Part shown: piece after piece, positions 29,084 to 35,447 of the stretch
Layout of the letters: every line of letters begins with the position of its first letter
How positions within the stretch are numbered: position 1 is the first letter of the stretch
Virus record (IMG/VR): IMGVR_UViG_3300032329_000471
Coordinates: 64,001 to 121,793 of that record
Source: a virus
Lineage: Duplodnaviria; Heunggongvirae; Uroviricota; Caudoviricetes
Reading direction: 5' to 3' (one strand)
DNA: 57,793 nt
Notes under the pieces: model-generated
Databases searched by the model: none
Seen by the model: the letters and a program-made list of their open reading frames with translations, nothing else
Told to the model about the DNA's origin: nothing
Program-made: the position numbers and the translations under genes

Positions 29084-32000
29084 ATGAGCTGTAAGTACAC
29101 ATACAAAGGAATGGAGTTTGAAAAAGATGAGTTAGTTAAATATCTTATAGATAATCCATCAGAAAAGTTTGATAATAGTGGAAAGCAAAGTGACTTTTAC
29201 TACTCTATTAAAACTGGAGCCAGTTTAAAAGATTTGAAAAAAGCCGGTCTTAATGTAACGGTTGCTACAGTAACAATGCTTAATCAAAGAATAAGTGATG
29301 CTAAGAATATGGCTCAAGCTATTGAACACTCAGCTTATTCAGAAGAAGAAAAACTTAGGTTAAAAGCTTATTATAAAAACATTATTCAAGAAACAACTGG
29401 AGCTTTACGTGATATATCAACATCTACTGGGGATAAACAACTTAATCTTATTCTTAATCAAGCTACTATAGATCATAAACTTGTTGAAACTATGTATAAG
29501 TCGTCAGACTCTATAAGTTTTAATGAGTTAAAGTTTGCTAAAGAAATGGTAGAAAGCTGGTCTAATTTTAAATCTGTTCTTGGTATAGAAGATGTTGATG
29601 AGCTTCCGGATGAAACAAGAGAAAAAGTTAGAACTATTCTTCATAATTTTTCTGATCTATCTGATAAAACAAGAAGAATTGCTATAGAGCTTATAAGAAA
29701 AGCTTTTGATGGTAAAATAACTGAAACAGAGATTACAAGAATTGTAGATACATCATTAGCTACTGAATGGATCAGAGATCTTACTACTACAGGTGTTCCT
29801 ATTGCAAACGTATTAAGTAGATTATTAGAAGAAACTAATATTAAAATTAATAAGGAAAGAAATGATATACATCGTGAAATAGATAAGGTAGCTGATAAGC
29901 TAAAAACACATCCAGAAATAATAAAGAATGGGTTTGATATATTCTTTAAAATGAAAAAGAATAAGGATAACACTGAAACAAGAACTAGAGTTTCTAGATA
30001 TTCTCAAAAGTTTTGGGATTCTAAAAGAGCTAACTCAACAACATTAGATATTCAATTAAAAGAAGTGGGTGATAACAAAGAAAAAGTTAAAGCAGCTTGG
30101 GCTCGATACCACGCTTGGAATGAAGCTAACACTATATTGTTTAATTCACTACCTTTTATAAATTCTGAAGATTATAAAGACTCTGATAGAGAACGTGAAA
30201 TAGAAAATCTTAAAAATTTAGGATTTAAAGAAAACGAAATTGATAATATTATTAGCGAAAGTGCTTTAAGATATGAAAGATATTTAAAAGCTAAAGATCA
30301 ATATCAAGCTAATATGATAGCTAAGATAGCTTATCATCCAGAATTAATAGCTGAAGGTAAAACAGAAGCTGATTGGGTTAAAGAACAAGTAGAGGATTAT
30401 GATAATTTATACAATCCATTAAAATATGTTAATCAAAAGATATATGGAGCTCTAATTGTTACAGCAAAAGGTGGTGCTGAAAATTGTTATCTTGTTCCTG
30501 TAAAAAATATAAAAGGTCAGGATATGGAGTATTACGATAAACAGTTTGACACTATAGTTAATGATCCAGTATTATATGAATTTTATTCTTGGTTTGATAA
30601 AACGATTAAAGAAAATTTATCTTGGTATCCTAAAGAAGAAATAGAAGGACTTGGTTCAAACTATCTTCCAATTATAGCTGAAAAAGCTGCTAAAGAATAT
30701 GGACTTAGTAATATTAAAGACTCAGTTAAAGGATTAGGAGATTGGTTTTTAAATGCATTTACCGCGTATGACTATGAACAAAGAGTTGAAACCGGTGGTA
30801 TGACTATGAAAGAACGTAGAAACTTTAACGCTACATTTTTACATCAAGATATAGGAACTGAGAAAGCTTCTAAAGATATGATATTAATGGCTAGAGCCTT
30901 TGCTGATATGTCTTTGATATATAAACATAAGAATACAATTAAAGCTCAAGTTGATATTATTAATGACGTAATACAAGAAACTAAAGGTTCTTATAAATAC
31001 AATAAGAAAACAGGTGAATATATAGCTAAAGCTGAGGATGCTAAACATATAAAAGGATTGGCGGACTTTACTGTAAAAAAAGGATTTTATGGTATTAGTG
31101 ATAAAGATATGGCTGATGAAGCGCTTAGTGGTGATACTTTGTTTTATGATTGGAAAGAACTAGTTAGTGGTGGATTATATAAATCTGAAAAAGCTAAAAA
31201 AGCAAAAGCTATTGAAGATAAAATTAAAAAAGTTAATGAACAGTTAGATAAAGAAAATATTACAGAAAAAGATGAAGAAGTCTTAACAGATGCCTTATAT
31301 CAATTAAAAAAAGAACATACGAATTTAGGTGGTAGAAAGTTTTCATTATCACAAATGATTGATAGTAGTCTTACTTTAACAAGAGCTACATCATTAACTT
31401 TTAACGTAGCTTCTGCAGTTAGAAACTTACTTGTTGGTAAACTAAATAACTGGGAACACGCAAAAGGTGGTAGAGATTATACTACATCTGATTTAGCTAT
31501 TGCTAATAGATTAATAGCTTCTTCAATAGGTAAATACTGGTCTGGTGGAAAATATGAGACAAGAATGACACATATATTATTTAAAGTGTTATCAGATTCA
31601 GGACTATTAGAAGGAGAAGATCATGGTTATGTAAAATCTTTAGTTGATAATAGAAGTAATGTAGATAAGTTTAAAGCTATGTTACCTAAAGGGTATACAC
31701 TTCTTCAATCTGGTGACTATCATTTTAAATCTGAGCTTATGATGGCTGGTTTTAATTTTACTAAAGTTGAAACTAGCAAGGGACAAAAGTCTTTACATGA
31801 AGTATTAGATGAAGATGGTAAATATGATGAAAAAGAATTTGGTCCTTGGGATGCTGAAAAAAATGGTGGAAAAACATTTGATGAACTGTATACTGATACT
31901 ATTCTTAAATATAGACAACTAGCTAAAAAACTACATGGAGCTGTTGGTAAAGATATATATCTTAAAGCTAAAGGAAACTCTATAGGTAGATTGTTTATGG

Positions 32001-32593
32001 TGTTTAAATCATGGTTACCTGAAACAATTGGTGTAAGGTTTGATCCTAAACATATTGATGGTATAATGAATAGAGAAGAAGAAGGTTTTTATAGAACATT
32101 TGTTGGTATTTGTAGAGAAAAAGGATTAGGTACATTTAAACTTATGTTAGATGCTGTTCTTAATAGAGATGTAGATATAAGTGATGAAATGAAACTTGCT
32201 AACTTTAAAAAAGCTGTCGCTGAAATACAAGTTATTATAACATTAATGTTAGCGTATACAATATTATCAGCTATATCACCTACAGATAAAAAAGATAAAA
32301 AAATGTATAATCTTTTTGTTTTAAGACAATTAAAAGATTTACAACGTGATATGACTTATTATATAGATATTAGATCTGCAAATGATTTACAAAAAAATGT
32401 TGTACCAATACTGATCACTTATCAAAATATGGGAAAAGCTTTTAACGCTTTTGGACAACATATACTTGGTGTCGAAAAACCAGATGGTAAACTTAAATAT
32501 GATAATGAACGTACAGCACTTGCTATAACTAAAGTACTTCCAGTATTAAGTAATGTAAACAGAGTTATATATTATACTAAAGAGATACAATAA
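29084..32593 (+). CDS. Large virion cargo protein downstream of the RNAP
   Basis: 1169 aa, helical, last gene before a bidirectional terminator; synteny with crAss-like RNAP/cargo blocks. Confidence 0.5.
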   Translation: MSCKYTYKGMEFEKDELVKYLIDNPSEKFDNSGKQSDFYYSIKTGASLKDLKKAGLNVTVATVTMLNQRISDAKNMAQAIEHSAYSEEEKLRLKAYYKNIIQETTGALRDISTSTGDKQLNLILNQATIDHKLVETMYKSSDSISFNELKFAKEMVESWSNFKSVLGIEDVDELPDETREKVRTILHNFSDLSDKTRRIAIELIRKAFDGKITETEITRIVDTSLATEWIRDLTTTGVPIANVLSRLLEETNIKINKERNDIHREIDKVADKLKTHPEIIKNGFDIFFKMKKNKDNTETRTRVSRYSQKFWDSKRANSTTLDIQLKEVGDNKEKVKAAWARYHAWNEANTILFNSLPFINSEDYKDSDREREIENLKNLGFKENEIDNIISESALRYERYLKAKDQYQANMIAKIAYHPELIAEGKTEADWVKEQVEDYDNLYNPLKYVNQKIYGALIVTAKGGAENCYLVPVKNIKGQDMEYYDKQFDTIVNDPVLYEFYSWFDKTIKENLSWYPKEEIEGLGSNYLPIIAEKAAKEYGLSNIKDSVKGLGDWFLNAFTAYDYEQRVETGGMTMKERRNFNATFLHQDIGTEKASKDMILMARAFADMSLIYKHKNTIKAQVDIINDVIQETKGSYKYNKKTGEYIAKAEDAKHIKGLADFTVKKGFYGISDKDMADEALSGDTLFYDWKELVSGGLYKSEKAKKAKAIEDKIKKVNEQLDKENITEKDEEVLTDALYQLKKEHTNLGGRKFSLSQMIDSSLTLTRATSLTFNVASAVRNLLVGKLNNWEHAKGGRDYTTSDLAIANRLIASSIGKYWSGGKYETRMTHILFKVLSDSGLLEGEDHGYVKSLVDNRSNVDKFKAMLPKGYTLLQSGDYHFKSELMMAGFNFTKVETSKGQKSLHEVLDEDGKYDEKEFGPWDAEKNGGKTFDELYTDTILKYRQLAKKLHGAVGKDIYLKAKGNSIGRLFMVFKSWLPETIGVRFDPKHIDGIMNREEEGFYRTFVGICREKGLGTFKLMLDAVLNRDVDISDEMKLANFKKAVAEIQVIITLMLAYTILSAISPTDKKDKKMYNLFVLRQLKDLQRDMTYYIDIRSANDLQKNVVPILITYQNMGKAFNAFGQHILGVEKPDGKLKYDNERTALAITKVLPVLSNVNRVIYYTKEIQ

Positions 32594-32621
32594 AAAGAGG
32601 GAGTTATTCTCCCTCTTTTTT
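32592..32621. terminator. Bidirectional intrinsic terminator
   Basis: AAAAAGAGGGAG-TTATT-CTCCCTCTTTTT between convergent operons. Confidence 0.85.
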
Positions 32622-32622
32622 G

Positions 32623-32802
32623 TTACTTTTTTTTGTAATAAGTAAAGTAAATAATAATAATTCCTATACCAATTCCTATCTCATTATAGATAGACTCTTC
32701 TCTGGTATCATCACATATTGCTTCACCTTGTTCATACAAAATACCAAAAACAGTTTTTCTTTTTGAAAAAAAAGAAAACTTAACATGTAACATACTATTC
32801 AT
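32623..32802 (-). CDS. Small protein with a hydrophobic C-terminal segment (59 aa, not in the ORF track)
   Basis: Manual translation MNSMLHVKFSFFSKRKTVFGILYEQGEAICDDTREESIYNEIGIGIGIIIIYFTYYKKK; fills the gap between 32809 and the terminator. Confidence 0.55.
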   Translation of the reverse strand: MNSMLHVKFSFFSKRKTVFGILYEQGEAICDDTREESIYNEIGIGIGIIIIYFTYYKKK

Positions 32803-32808
32803 AACTGT

Positions 32809-33900
32809 CTAATTTTTAATTTCAAAAGGATGCTTCATAATAAAACAATCCTGTGGTTGATCCGTATGTTTTTTAAAGCCGTTAATATAGCTTTGTATAT
32901 TTGTAGATCCAACTGGATTATGTGAATGACAACATGCTTTCCAAGATAATAAAGTTTTATACTCATTTTCTAAAATACTGATATCAGGAATAAAAAATGG
33001 ATGTCTAAATTTATAATCTATATTTGGTTGTAAAATAGATGGTTTTGTAATAGGTAAATCATTAGCATTTTTCCATATAAAACCTTTACTTGTTTTATAT
33101 AAATTTCTTGCACAAGCTCTTATTGATGAAGCACTAAATCCTAGTTGTCTAGCAGCTTCTTCACTACTACCATAAACGTCAATTAAGTTATTATTAATAT
33201 CATATTGAGCTATTGGTATACTAATAGACGTATTTTCAGAAACTCTGCTTCTTTTTTTTGGTCTTATATTATTATTTATAGCATGTTCATTATTTTCTTT
33301 AGATGTACACCATTCTAAATTACTCCAATGATTGTTCCATCTATTCCCATCTATATGATTTATTTGTGATTTATTATCAATATTAACAATAAACGATTCA
33401 GCAACAAGTCTATGAATCTTTTTTCTACTTTTATTACCATTACCATCATATAATGTTACCATTAAACCAGTAACTGATTTATCAGGTTTAAGAAAAGCAT
33501 TTGTCTTTCCATTTTTTTTATTATATCCTTTATGAATAATTCTTCCAAAATTAGATACTTTATAAATAGATTCATAACCAGGTATGTCTTTCCATACTTC
33601 TTCTGTATATAATAATCTTTTCTGACAATGTTCTACTAACCAACGCGCGCAATCTAGTCCGGTTTTTTCTTTATACTGTCCGTAGTTAGGATGTTGAAAT
33701 CCTTCTACCATAAGTTGTTTGTAATAGTCATCCATATGTTCCTGGGCCAGGTCATGATCAAAAGAGATCAGATCTGGTATACCGTTTTTGGATATGTATT
33801 CTACAAACTCATCATAGTTTCTTACAACATTCCATGGATGATATCCGGGAATAGTTACAGTTGGGATACGCGTATCATCTAGATATAATGCTTTCTTCAT
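32809..33900 (-). CDS. Cyclic-phosphate-processing receiver (cREC)-like protein interrupted in frame by a NUMOD4-HNH-NUMOD1 endonuclease
   Basis: The N-part has LYLDDTRIP, WNVVRNYDEF, ISFDHDL and KTGLDCARWL. The C-part has HSHNPVGSTNI. The HNH lies between them. Confidence 0.8.
   Translation of the reverse strand: MKKALYLDDTRIPTVTIPGYHPWNVVRNYDEFVEYISKNGIPDLISFDHDLAQEHMDDYYKQLMVEGFQHPNYGQYKEKTGLDCARWLVEHCQKRLLYTEEVWKDIPGYESIYKVSNFGRIIHKGYNKKNGKTNAFLKPDKSVTGLMVTLYDGNGNKSRKKIHRLVAESFIVNIDNKSQINHIDGNRWNNHWSNLEWCTSKENNEHAINNNIRPKKRSRVSENTSISIPIAQYDINNNLIDVYGSSEEAARQLGFSASSIRACARNLYKTSKGFIWKNANDLPITKPSILQPNIDYKFRHPFFIPDISILENEYKTLLSWKACCHSHNPVGSTNIQSYINGFKKHTDQPQDCFIMKHPFEIKN
32946..33615 (-). 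mobile_element. In-frame homing endonuclease insertion (NUMOD4 + HNH_3 + NUMOD1)
   Basis: EEVWKDIPGYESIYKVSNFGRI; HRLVAESF..NHIDGNRWNNHWSNLEWCTSKEN; AQYDINNNLIDVYGSSEEAARQLG. Flanked by a 7-bp direct repeat (ATAATAA on + at 32946 and 33609, 663 bp apart). Confidence 0.75.
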
Positions 33901-33901
33901 T

Positions 33902-34375
33902 TTACTTAATATTTAATAGTTTACATATATATCTAAATTCATTAATAGAAGAACAGAATCCATTATAAACAATATCTAAAGAATATTTACCAGGTGGATT
34001 TGTTTTTATTTTTGAAGCATCTAGTATATAATCCCGTAACTCAATAGTTAATCTAGTACTTAAAATATTATATCTACAATCATAAGTATAGTTACCAATG
34101 TCTTTTTTAAATAATTTTACACCATCACCATAAATTATATCTGCTATACAGATCCATCCTTCAGCTTCTAACTGTTCTTTAGTGAGATATGGAGTTCTTA
34201 TTCTTCCTTCTTCTAAATCTTCTACAAGATTTTCTAAATCAAGTTCTTCAATAGTAATACTTTCCCAAGGATATTCATCTTTTTTTTCAAAAGCATATTC
34301 ATCACAATCTTTCCATTCACATTCATATCCAATATGTAAATCTGATATGTCTGGAGTATAATATTTATTTTCCAT
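33902..34375 (-). CDS. Hypothetical protein
   Basis: 157-aa ORF, tightly packed in the minus-strand operon. Confidence 0.7.
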   Translation of the reverse strand: MENKYYTPDISDLHIGYECEWKDCDEYAFEKKDEYPWESITIEELDLENLVEDLEEGRIRTPYLTKEQLEAEGWICIADIIYGDGVKLFKKDIGNYTYDCRYNILSTRLTIELRDYILDASKIKTNPPGKYSLDIVYNGFCSSINEFRYICKLLNIK

Positions 34376-34616
34376 CTTTAAATTCGTTTTCTAAATACTC
34401 AATTAGATACTTAGCGTATCCTGTTAATATCTCTTTATCTTGAAAAATAAAGCTGTTGAGTTTAGACTCAACAGCTTTATTATATTCTTCTTTTAGTAGT
34501 TTAAAACTACTTTTATTAATAGACAGACTTTCCTGATTCACTACTATAATTTTGATGATATTTTGATTCTTGTACTCCAGTTTGACCGTGGTATTTACTA
34601 CCTGCTTTTTGATCAT
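34365..34616 (-). CDS. Hypothetical protein (start uncertain)
   Basis: 83-aa ORF that overlaps the end of dcd by about 100 bp; the C-terminal half looks protein-like. Confidence 0.5.
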   Translation of the reverse strand: MIKKQVVNTTVKLEYKNQNIIKIIVVNQESLSINKSSFKLLKEEYNKAVESKLNSFIFQDKEILTGYAKYLIEYLENEFKDGK

Positions 34617-35172
34617 AGGATTCTTCTATTTCTCCCTCCACTCTAGCAAACTCTAACTGACATATTTTCATGTTAGGATATACTAATATAGGACGTGTAG
34701 CAACAAGTTCTAACACTAAGCTTCCTTCGAATCCTGGATCTATAAAACCAGCAGTTATATGTATAAACAATCCAAGTCTACCTAAAGAAGATTTACCTTC
34801 AACCTTAGCTCTTATATTACCTTTTACACCGATACGTTCGTTTACAGCATAAAGATAAACATCTCCTGGCATAAGAACACATCCATAATCTGGAATAGTA
34901 AATTCTTCTACTTCATTAGGTTTGCGTGGATCCAATGGTTCAGTGTAAACATACATACCATGACTATCTATAAAATATAGTTCTTCTTTATCTAATATAT
35001 ATTGAGGAACTTGATCTTTAAATACTTTTTTTACAGGCGTTTTATATATCTTAAAACTAGGCGCCAGCGTAAGATCAACACTAACTGGATTCAAATACTT
35101 TTCTTCAAAAGGAGCTATAATAACTTTACCTTTTAATAACTCATCTTTAATTACTTTGTCTGATAATATCAT
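34516..35172 (-). CDS. dcd: dCTP deaminase
   Basis: MILSDKVI, LNPVSVDLTL, GKSSLGRLGLFIHITAGFIDPGFEGSLVLEL, YPNMKICQL, YDQKAGSKYHGQ. Confidence 0.92.
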   Translation of the reverse strand: MILSDKVIKDELLKGKVIIAPFEEKYLNPVSVDLTLAPSFKIYKTPVKKVFKDQVPQYILDKEELYFIDSHGMYVYTEPLDPRKPNEVEEFTIPDYGCVLMPGDVYLYAVNERIGVKGNIRAKVEGKSSLGRLGLFIHITAGFIDPGFEGSLVLELVATRPILVYPNMKICQLEFARVEGEIEESYDQKAGSKYHGQTGVQESKYHQNYSSESGKSVY

Positions 35173-35447
35173 AATGGTATATTTTTTAATGTTTTTTCTA
35201 TTAACTCTTTATCTCTTGGTTTTAAAGCCGACATTCTTAATGCTATATCTTTCTTTAAAACAGAAGAATATATTTGTGTTTTTCTTACACATCTTTTTTG
35301 TACATCTGCTGGTGGTATACCCAATCTATTACCAGCTTTGTTAAAGTTCTCATACACACCTATAAGTTTAGAATCCCCCTGTAAAAGGGGATCATAAACT
35401 TTAACACATGTATCAGAACACACATCATTTCTTAAAGCTAAACTCAT
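35169..35447 (-). CDS. NUMOD1/IENR1-like small DNA-binding protein
   Basis: VKVYD..SKLIGVYENFNKAGNRLGI resembles the NUMOD1 HTH pattern. Confidence 0.45.
   Translation of the reverse strand: MSLALRNDVCSDTCVKVYDPLLQGDSKLIGVYENFNKAGNRLGIPPADVQKRCVRKTQIYSSVLKKDIALRMSALKPRDKELIEKTLKNIPL

What the first reader, a model, noticed from the sequence alone, without database searches (positions are those of the whole stretch)
32809..33900. Homing endonuclease inserted in frame into a cyclic-phosphate receiver domain with no intein or intron apparatus
Seen: the receiver is split between ...WLVEHCQKR and LLSWKACCHSHNPVG by a 221-codon NUMOD4-HNH-NUMOD1 unit with no stop codon. Deleting between the TTATTAT direct repeats (32946/33609) restores a plausible contiguous receiver (HCQKRLLSWKACCHSHNPVG). 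There are no Hint blocks or terminal HN-C/S/T, and little non-HNH sequence remains for a group I core. Known: homing endonucleases inside genes normally rely on splicing. Inference: a splicing-free invasion tolerated as a loop insertion, or a functional receiver-nuclease chimera in which cyclic-phosphate sensing gates DNA cleavage. The 7-bp repeat is all A/T and could be chance.
Basis: partly seen in the sequence, partly recalled or inferred. Interest (0 to 1): 0.72.

Follow-up and report, generated by a model that had tools for sequence, protein, structure and literature searches.

The report
In-frame HNH endonuclease inside phage cREC
A selfish DNA-cutting gene (an HNH homing endonuclease) sits in frame in the middle of a small phage enzyme gene with no intron or intein to remove it, and comparison with near-identical empty and occupied copies shows it moved in recently, a rare and only recently described way of life for such elements.

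Summary
ORF 32809-33900 (minus strand, 363 aa) is a cREC gene (PF20274) interrupted in frame by a 221-codon I-HmuI-like NUMOD4-HNH-NUMOD1 unit. Hundreds of uninterrupted alleles exist. The nearest one (P0121/L012) matches the flanks at 97-100% DNA identity, except for a patch of about 50 nt at the junction. A second phage (L017/L023) carries the same insert with 1 difference in 663 nt, against 26 in 426 nt of flank (p=3e-10). I found no intron (Rfam, folding, too little non-coding sequence) and no intein (no Hint domain, no junction nucleophiles). The HNH has no start codon of its own. About 29 metagenomic proteins carry the same HNH lineage, with the same C-terminal tail, in frame at a different cREC loop. 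Those occupied alleles do not form a clade in the host-gene tree (AU p=6e-5), while their inserts do. With a deep alignment, AlphaFold2 rebuilds one receiver fold from the two halves, with the insert in the loop between a helix and a strand. Best reading: a mobile, splice-less homing endonuclease translated as an internal domain. The closest precedents are the 2023-2025 actinophage methylase insertions. This scan has also noted an in-frame HNH in a phage ligase.

The parts
32809..33900 (-). Whole 363-codon ORF (P0001): cREC N-half, HNH insert, cREC C-half, and a TAG stop
33616..33900 (-). cREC N-half (aa 1-95). It holds strand 1 with D8/D9, strand 3 with D48-H49-D50, the EKTG motif (78-81) and a helix at 81-95
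   Evidence: Pfam; alignments; AF2 model with pLDDT 90-98
33609..33637 (-). 5' flank patch of about 29 nt that differs from the nearest empty allele (indels, about 60-70% identity), while the 90 nt upstream of it are 88/90 identical. It ends in the first TTATTAT (33609-33615)
32946..33608 (-). Inserted block of 663 nt (221 codons, aa 98-318 or equally 96-316), counted with one copy of the TTATTAT repeat
   Evidence: 680 nt (32929-33608) stand where the empty allele L012 has 17 nt
33529..33600 (-). NUMOD4 motif (aa 101-124). Free-standing relatives begin M-x-EVWKDIPGYEG at this point, but the insert has no start codon of its own
33289..33420 (-). HNH_3 catalytic core (aa 161-204). H182, N194 and N203 align with I-HmuI H75, N87 and N96
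33073..33219 (-). NUMOD1 / I-HmuI NUMOD-like helix-turn-helix DNA-binding module (aa 228-276)
32953..33072 (-). Tail of about 40 aa after the nuclease (aa 277-316, ...ITKPS...FFIPD...). It is shared only with the HNH units nested at the other cREC site and is absent from free-standing relatives. I infer that it is a return linker
   Evidence: the role is inference
32929..32945 (-). 3' flank patch of 17 nt. It has the same length as in the empty allele but an unrelated sequence (SWKACC against LKTCSV). It forms the strand (aa 321-324) that follows the insert
32809..32952 (-). cREC C-half (aa 317-363 plus the stop) with the HSHNPVG motif from aa 325. From H325 onward it is 98% identical in DNA to the empty allele

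Best explanation
This is a mobile I-HmuI-like HNH homing endonuclease that lives as an in-frame internal domain of a phage cREC protein. cREC is a predicted cyclic-phosphate phosphoesterase with a receiver fold. The element has no intron, no intein and no start codon of its own. It is therefore made only when the ribosome reads straight through the host gene, giving one polypeptide of about 42 kDa. The insert sits in the loop between a helix (aa 81-95) and the next strand (aa 321-324). In a receiver fold that loop lies on the face opposite the acidic active-site pocket, so the two halves can still assemble, and a tail of about 40 aa leads the chain back. In mixed infections the nuclease domain is inferred to nick or cut empty cREC alleles. 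Repair from the occupied allele would then copy the insert together with about 50 nt of flanking sequence. Shown here: the anatomy, the empty and occupied alleles, the exact site, the insert-versus-flank divergence contrast, the patchy distribution of the sister elements, and the lack of splicing features. Inferred: absence of splicing in vivo, nuclease activity and its target, and retained cREC activity.
For: Domain layout. The HNH matches I-HmuI 1U3E by sequence (E 1e-12) and by fold (E 1.3e-11), with the catalytic H/N/N aligned. There are 566 uninterrupted alleles. The nearest, P0121/L012, has 17 nt where the window has 680 nt. Its flanks are 97-100% identical outside a patch of about 50 nt. 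A syntenic empty allele lies in the related phage contig L005. A second phage context (L017/L023) lacks the 157-aa neighbour gene and has a different downstream gene. It carries the same insert with 1/663 nt different, against 26/426 nt in the flanks (Fisher p=2.7e-10). The insert has no in-frame ATG, GTG or TTG at its start, whereas free-standing relatives start there. All 29 other cREC+HNH proteins found (site A) also read through into the C-half. Empty alleles 78-81% identical to the site-A N-half exist. The site-A inserts form one clade (SH-aLRT 96), but their host alleles do not (AU p=6e-5, at least 4 changes forced). AF2 with a deep cREC alignment gives pLDDT 90-98 for aa 1-100 and 87-98 for aa 311-363. 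The 50 best PDB matches are all receiver domains aligned across both halves (Z 7.7-9.8).
Against: The AF2 reassembly is driven by an alignment of uninterrupted homologues. A shallower alignment left the C-half at pLDDT 30-40, so the model shows feasibility, not proof. The insertion is so recent that conservation of the cREC motifs in this allele says little about retained activity. The donor allele that supplied the diverged flank patch was not found. The residue aligned with I-HmuI D74, which I recall as a metal ligand, is Asn in this family, as it also is in free-standing relatives.
Confidence: 0.66

Rival explanations
1. The element is the same mobile in-frame HNH, but the insertion has inactivated cREC. 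The phage tolerates losing an accessory enzyme, and the open downstream frame is only a leftover of a very recent event.
For: The insertion is recent: the flanks are nearly identical to an empty allele. cREC is an accessory gene with a patchy distribution (PMC9503650). The first AF2 run did not pack the C-half.
Against: None of the 30 nested proteins, at either site, has a stop at the end of the nuclease, although free-standing relatives end there. The shared tail looks adapted to rejoin the host fold. The deep-alignment model rebuilds the fold. The cREC motifs are intact in the site-A proteins.
Confidence: 0.15
2. It is a domesticated bifunctional chimera. The nuclease domain has been recruited to work with cREC, for example by tethering it to DNA or by linking nucleotide or RNA-end processing to DNA cleavage, and it no longer acts as a selfish element.
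For: The in-frame layout is kept across about 30 diverged proteins, with both catalytic motif sets intact. The tail is conserved.
Against: Empty alleles far outnumber occupied ones (566 and 323 hits against about 30). Occupied alleles are scattered in the host tree. The insert is much less diverged than its flanks between two phages. A sharp flank patch of about 50 nt marks the junction. All of these are marks of homing. cREC is predicted to be an enzyme, not a sensor (PMC7824862).
Confidence: 0.1
3. The insert is removed after all, either by an unrecognised ribozyme, by a non-canonical protein-splicing chemistry, or by proteolysis at the linkers.
For: Homing endonucleases inside genes normally depend on splicing. 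Absence of a match to known models cannot exclude a new kind. Folding of the whole 781-nt region gives z = -2.4, from only 20 shuffles.
Against: Rfam gives no group I or II hit at E up to 10. Only about 120 nt of the insert do not encode conserved nuclease sequence, and that part folds no better than shuffles (z = +0.75). An intron does not need an open frame into the 3' exon, yet all 30 proteins have one. There is no Hint or intein Pfam match. Neither junction, at either site, has a conserved Cys/Ser/Thr or a His-Asn pair.
Confidence: 0.07

Closest known systems
Lone LAGLIDADG endonuclease domain in actinobacteriophage DNA methylases (Gosselin et al. 2023, PMC9957025; restated in PMC11855218)
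   Same: A homing-endonuclease domain sits inside a phage gene and is read in the host frame. No intein or intron was detected by computation. It is predicted to be a separate lobe of the host protein.
   Different: The nuclease family differs (LAGLIDADG, not HNH) and so does the host gene. There the occupied methylases form one clan, which suggests vertical inheritance. Here the occupied alleles are scattered and the insert was transferred recently. Neither case has been tested by experiment.
ShiLan domain and Pacc40 insertion: hidden HNH in phage methylase genes (Arsenault et al. 2025, PMC11855218)
   Same: An HNH homing element lies inside a phage ORF whose frame stays open across it. No splicing apparatus is present. 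The distribution is disjunct, which points to active homing.
   Different: There the HNH is encoded in another reading frame with its own GTG start, and the host-frame product is a filler loop. Here the HNH is in the host frame, has no start of its own, and must function as an internal domain of the fusion protein.
I-HmuI, the intron-encoded HNH nicking endonuclease of Bacillus phage SPO1 (PDB 1U3E)
   Same: It has the same NUMOD4-HNH-NUMOD1 architecture and fold, with the catalytic His and Asn residues aligned.
   Different: I-HmuI is a free protein encoded inside a self-splicing group I intron. The unit here has no intron and is covalently embedded in its host protein, with an added tail of about 40 aa.
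Inteins that carry a homing endonuclease domain
   Same: The insertion into a protein-coding gene is in frame. Expression is borrowed from the host gene. Spread is by homing, with the element less diverged than the host gene.
   Different: There is no Hint splicing domain and there are no junction nucleophiles, so the element is not expected to excise from the protein.
In-frame HNH-AP2 element in a phage DNA ligase
   Same: It was reported as an in-frame homing endonuclease without intron or intein that recurs at one site in several phage ligases.
   Different: The host gene and the DNA-binding module differ. I did not check that note. The cREC lineage here occupies two different loops of one host fold.

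Membership tests
cREC_REC (PF20274), cyclic-phosphate processing receiver domain | Profile match above Pfam's gathering score | tested here: met
   62.8 bits against a cut-off of 27, from the N-half alone. The uninterrupted P0121 scores 68.1 bits over profile positions 3-87.
cREC_REC (PF20274), cyclic-phosphate processing receiver domain | Conserved acidic and polar residues (DD after strand 1, DHD after strand 3, EKTG, HSxNPxG) on a receiver fold | tested here: met
   All are present in P0001. The model's 50 best PDB matches are receiver domains, Z 7.7-9.8.
cREC_REC (PF20274), cyclic-phosphate processing receiver domain | Phosphoesterase activity on 2',3'-cyclic or 1''-2'' cyclic phosphates | not testable with these tools
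   The activity is only predicted in the literature (PMC7824862, PMC9503650).
HNH homing endonuclease, I-HmuI-like | NUMOD4, HNH_3 and NUMOD1 modules with catalytic His and Asn residues | tested here: met
   H182, N194 and N203 align with I-HmuI H75, N87 and N96.
HNH homing endonuclease, I-HmuI-like | Presence/absence polymorphism at one site in otherwise near-identical alleles | tested here: met
   L012 is empty; the window and L017/L023 are occupied.
HNH homing endonuclease, I-HmuI-like | The element is less diverged than its host gene, or the host and element trees disagree | tested here: met
   1/663 against 26/426 nt, p=2.7e-10. For site A, the AU test rejects a clade of occupied alleles, p=6e-5, while the inserts form a clade.
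HNH homing endonuclease, I-HmuI-like | Site-specific cleavage or nicking of the empty allele | not testable with these tools
   This needs the purified protein and empty-allele DNA.
Intein | Hint splicing blocks flanking the endonuclease | tested here: not met
   There is no Hint or intein family in Pfam at E up to 1. Only about 5 aa precede the nuclease and about 40 aa follow it.
Intein | Cys/Ser/Thr at the first residue, and His-Asn followed by Cys/Ser/Thr at the C-junction | tested here: not met
   The junctions read QKR|LLYTEE and NEYKT|LLSW. No nucleophile is conserved at the site-A junctions either.
Group I or group II intron | Match to the ribozyme covariance models | tested here: inconclusive
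   No hit at E up to 10 over 32000-35000. Rfam models can miss cores that are split by ORFs.
Group I or group II intron | Enough non-coding, structured RNA to form a catalytic core | tested here: not met
   About 120 nt lie outside the conserved nuclease-coding sequence, and they fold with z = +0.75. The amino-acid sequence of the tail is itself conserved.
ShiLan-type hidden HNH insertion | The HNH is encoded in a frame other than the host's, with its own start codon | tested here: not met
   The HNH is in the host frame. No alternative-frame ORF longer than 63 aa overlaps the gene.

The most novel reading that the evidence does not exclude
A lineage of HNH homing endonucleases may have adopted a third way of living inside genes, besides introns and inteins. 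In this reading it persists as a permanent in-frame domain of the host protein, has given up its own start codon, and has gained a conserved return-linker tail that lets the host fold close around it. The fusion protein itself would be the active homing enzyme. The lineage has colonised at least two different loops of the cREC fold and still moves between alleles.
Probability: 0.5. Interest if true: 0.72.

Novelty: new variant of a known kind. Interest (0 to 1): 0.6.

Why it matters
Homing endonucleases are thought to survive inside genes only because introns or inteins remove them. A few computational reports since 2023 suggest that some phage elements simply stay in the protein. This locus is an unusually clean case. 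It offers the empty allele, two occupied alleles, the exact junction, a patch of donor-like flank and a sister group at another loop of the same fold, all in small proteins that are easy to express. That makes direct tests possible: whether a nuclease can home while embedded in another enzyme, and how a small alpha/beta fold tolerates a 221-residue guest. This is also of interest for engineering domain insertions. The result further warns annotators that cREC+HNH proteins are invaded genes rather than designed fusions.

Tried and rejected
1. I asked whether the end of the insert (ISILENEYKT) is a degenerate duplicate of the host helix, or a remnant of a site-A donor exon. HMMs of both segments did not extend into it. 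The 40-nt flanks score only P about 0.013 in a post hoc test. I did not adopt this idea.

2. A 115-row MAFFT alignment (A5) placed nuclease rows onto cREC columns, so I discarded it. I chose the row sets for A6 and A8 after local tests.

3. AF2 with the shallow alignment A6 gave a confident nuclease but left the C-half at pLDDT 30-40. That run says nothing about refolding.

4. tblastn of the C-terminal 79 aa against the phage collection found nothing. The piece was too short and too diverged.

5. The Rfam scan and RNA folding gave no sign of a ribozyme.

7. The exhaustive HMMER search found no further site-B forms. The long hits I sampled are tandem HNH arrays, not nucleases nested in other host genes.

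8. The exact-sequence contig look-up for P0001 returned nothing.

9. I did not run complex prediction on the two halves. A pass there would mostly reflect likeness to solved receiver domains.

Full report
**Observation**

The minus-strand ORF 32809-33900 is open for 363 codons. Pfam finds these domains:
- cREC_REC at aa 5-93, covering only profile positions 3-61 of 88;
- NUMOD4 at aa 101-124;
- HNH_3 at aa 161-204;
- NUMOD1 / I-HmuI-NUMOD-like at aa 228-276.

PHROGs agrees. Uninterrupted cREC proteins of cultured phages, 120-137 aa long, align with both ends of the ORF. The missing part of the domain (HSHNPVG... from aa 325) is therefore really downstream of the nuclease.

**Empty alleles and the exact site**

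A word-indexed search for shorter proteins found 566 uninterrupted relatives of 141-156 aa. The nearest is P0121, 87% identical overall, on a 990-nt contig (L012).
- At the DNA level, L012 400-750 matches window 33955-33609, and L012 768-881 matches window 32928-32815.
- Thus 17 nt of the empty allele stand where the window has 680 nt, a net gain of 663 nt or 221 codons.
- The upstream homology ends on the first TTATTAT.
- The distance from the second TTATTAT to the His325 codon is the same 17 nt as in the empty allele.
- In 15-nt bins, identity is 14-15 of 15 on both sides until about 29 nt before and about 22 nt after the junction. There it falls to 7-12 of 15, with indels.
- The residues in that patch lie within the natural variation of empty alleles; some, for example, read ...CQKR... 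or ...SLKACCV. I read the patch as flank co-converted from a diverged donor allele. This is inference, because no donor was found.

A syntenic empty allele also lies in a more distant phage contig (L005 5337-5774). It sits between homologues of the window's neighbour genes.

**A second occupied allele**

Two other assemblies of about 124.6 kb (L017 and L023, identical to each other over the fetched stretch) carry the same interrupted gene.
- Their context differs. The 157-aa gene upstream is absent. DNA homology with the window stops 6 nt before the stop codon and a different gene follows.
- Between the two occupied alleles the insert differs at 1 of 663 nt, a synonymous change. The flanking cREC halves differ at 26 of 426 nt (Fisher p = 2.7e-10).
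- The differences lie at the two ends of the gene. A central block (nt 220-1034) that includes the insert is almost identical.

An element much younger than the gene around it is the classic mark of recent lateral spread.

**No splicing apparatus**

- Rfam gives no group I or II intron match at E up to 10.
- Only about 120 nt of the insert lie outside conserved nuclease-coding sequence. They fold no better than shuffled sequence (z = +0.75), and their amino-acid sequence is itself conserved.
- Pfam finds no Hint or intein domain. About 5 residues precede the nuclease, and the junctions carry no Cys/Ser/Thr or His-Asn signature.
- Free-standing relatives begin M-x-EVWKDIPGYEG exactly where the insert begins. 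The insert reads ...YTEEVWKDIPGYES with no in-frame start codon. The nuclease can therefore be made only as part of the cREC polypeptide.

**The nuclease**

It matches I-HmuI (PDB 1U3E) by sequence (E 1e-12) and by fold (Foldseek E 1.3e-11, probability 1.00). H182, N194 and N203 align with I-HmuI H75, N87 and N96. No paralogue exists in the 121.8-kb genome.

**A sister group at another loop**

The search for proteins of similar length found about 29 metagenomic proteins of 312-342 aa with cREC plus the same nuclease, 31-41% identical over 92-96% of the query.
- In all of them the EKTG motif follows the nuclease. The insert lies after the DHDL strand (site A), about 45 residues upstream of the window's site (site B).
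- Empty alleles 78-81% identical to the N-terminal part of a site-A protein exist. There the nuclease replaces a loop of about 20 aa.
- The tail after the nuclease (...ITKPS...FFIP) is shared by site-A and site-B inserts but not by free-standing relatives.
- In a quick tree of the nuclease core, the site-A inserts form one clade (SH-aLRT 96). The window's insert sits next to them with weak support (83).
- In a tree of the host parts alone, occupied site-A alleles are scattered among empty ones (13 changes, at least 4 forced by well-supported branches). An AU test rejects their monophyly (delta lnL 161, p = 6e-5).

So this nuclease lineage moves among cREC alleles while staying in frame, and it has settled in two loops of the same fold. 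The sampled site-A members lie on phage-like contigs.

**Structure**

- AF2 with a shallow mixed alignment modelled the nuclease well (pLDDT about 90) but not the C-half.
- With 145 uninterrupted cREC rows, aa 1-100 reach pLDDT 90-98 and aa 311-363 reach 87-98.
- The 50 best of 48,161 PDB representatives are all response-regulator receiver domains, aligned from residue 1 to about 360 (Z 7.7-9.8, 92-108 residues for most, rmsd mostly 2.2-3.4 A).
- The insert lies between a helix (81-95, which the model extends into the insert) and a strand (321-324). The strand is followed by H325/S326.
- In receiver folds the active-site residues sit at the C-terminal ends of the strands, so a helix-to-strand loop is on the opposite face. 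This is textbook topology, not measured here.

The model is biased by its alignment. It shows that reassembly is feasible, not that it happens. I-HmuI is an elongated DNA-wrapping monomer (my recollection of the 1U3E paper), so a long tail to bring the chain back is plausible. This is inference.

**What cREC is**

Iyer, Aravind and colleagues named cRec as a divergent receiver-fold domain. They predict that it hydrolyses 2',3'-cyclic RNA ends or cyclic ADP-ribose derivatives. It is never found with histidine kinases and has not been characterised by experiment (PMC7824862, PMC9503650). The gene ends a replication and nucleotide-metabolism operon that includes dCTP deaminase, dNMP kinase, a family B polymerase-like protein, a PD-(D/E)XK nuclease and a primase. 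The nuclease would therefore be made while genomes replicate.

**Comparison with what is known**

- The closest published cases are in actinobacteriophage methylase genes. One is a lone in-frame LAGLIDADG domain without a detectable intein or intron (PMC9957025).
- The other is the ShiLan/Pacc40 insertions, where a hidden HNH lies in another frame while the host frame stays open (PMC11855218).
- The present case differs from the published ones in nuclease family or in frame, in host gene, in having no start codon, in its conserved tail, and in occupying two loops.
- Earlier notes of this scan report a similar in-frame HNH in a phage ligase, and hidden out-of-frame HNH genes elsewhere. I did not check those notes.

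**Verdict**

I rate it a new variant of a recently described, experimentally untested kind, with interest 0.6.

Noticed in passing
window 33902-34375 (minus strand): The 157-aa gene just upstream of the cREC gene has no Pfam match. It is absent from the otherwise 98%-identical phage contig L017, where the 83-aa gene abuts the cREC gene. It is shorter (139-150 aa) and internally variable in L005 and L012. It is a second presence/absence polymorphism next to the first.
   Followed up: partly
window 32815 and downstream; L017 2803-5252: DNA homology between the window and L017 stops 6 nt before the cREC stop codon. Downstream, L017 has a different large minus-strand gene and lacks the 59-aa membrane-like ORF (window 32623-32802). 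A mosaic boundary coincides with the end of the gene.
   Followed up: partly
window 32585-32625: A GC-rich hairpin flanked by A and T runs lies between the convergent 1169-aa gene and the cREC operon. It looks like a bidirectional terminator.
   Followed up: no
L005 4420-5333; window 35169-35447 (minus strand): The related contig L005 has a calcineurin-like phosphoesterase and a 75-aa ORF between the neighbour gene and cREC. The 75-aa ORF resembles the window's 92-aa ORF (shared VKVYDP... stretch). Neither small ORF has a Pfam match.
   Followed up: partly
proteins P0008, P0009, P0013, P0015: Proteins of about 200 aa fuse a Cys-rich DUF5522 domain (PF17653) to an uninterrupted cREC that is about 70% identical to the window's halves. 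I have not seen this cREC architecture described.
   Followed up: partly
L014 3023-5939: A site-A cREC+HNH gene (P0032) on an 80-kb phage-like contig lies two genes downstream of an Acb3-family gene (PF25187), with a ClpP protease gene directly before it. This fits a counter-defence neighbourhood for cREC.
   Followed up: no
proteins P0361-P0374: Long proteins of 480-1120 aa consist of several tandem NUMOD4/HNH/NUMOD1 units, with up to 13 matched stretches. They may be fused arrays of homing endonucleases or unrecognised gene boundaries.
   Followed up: partly
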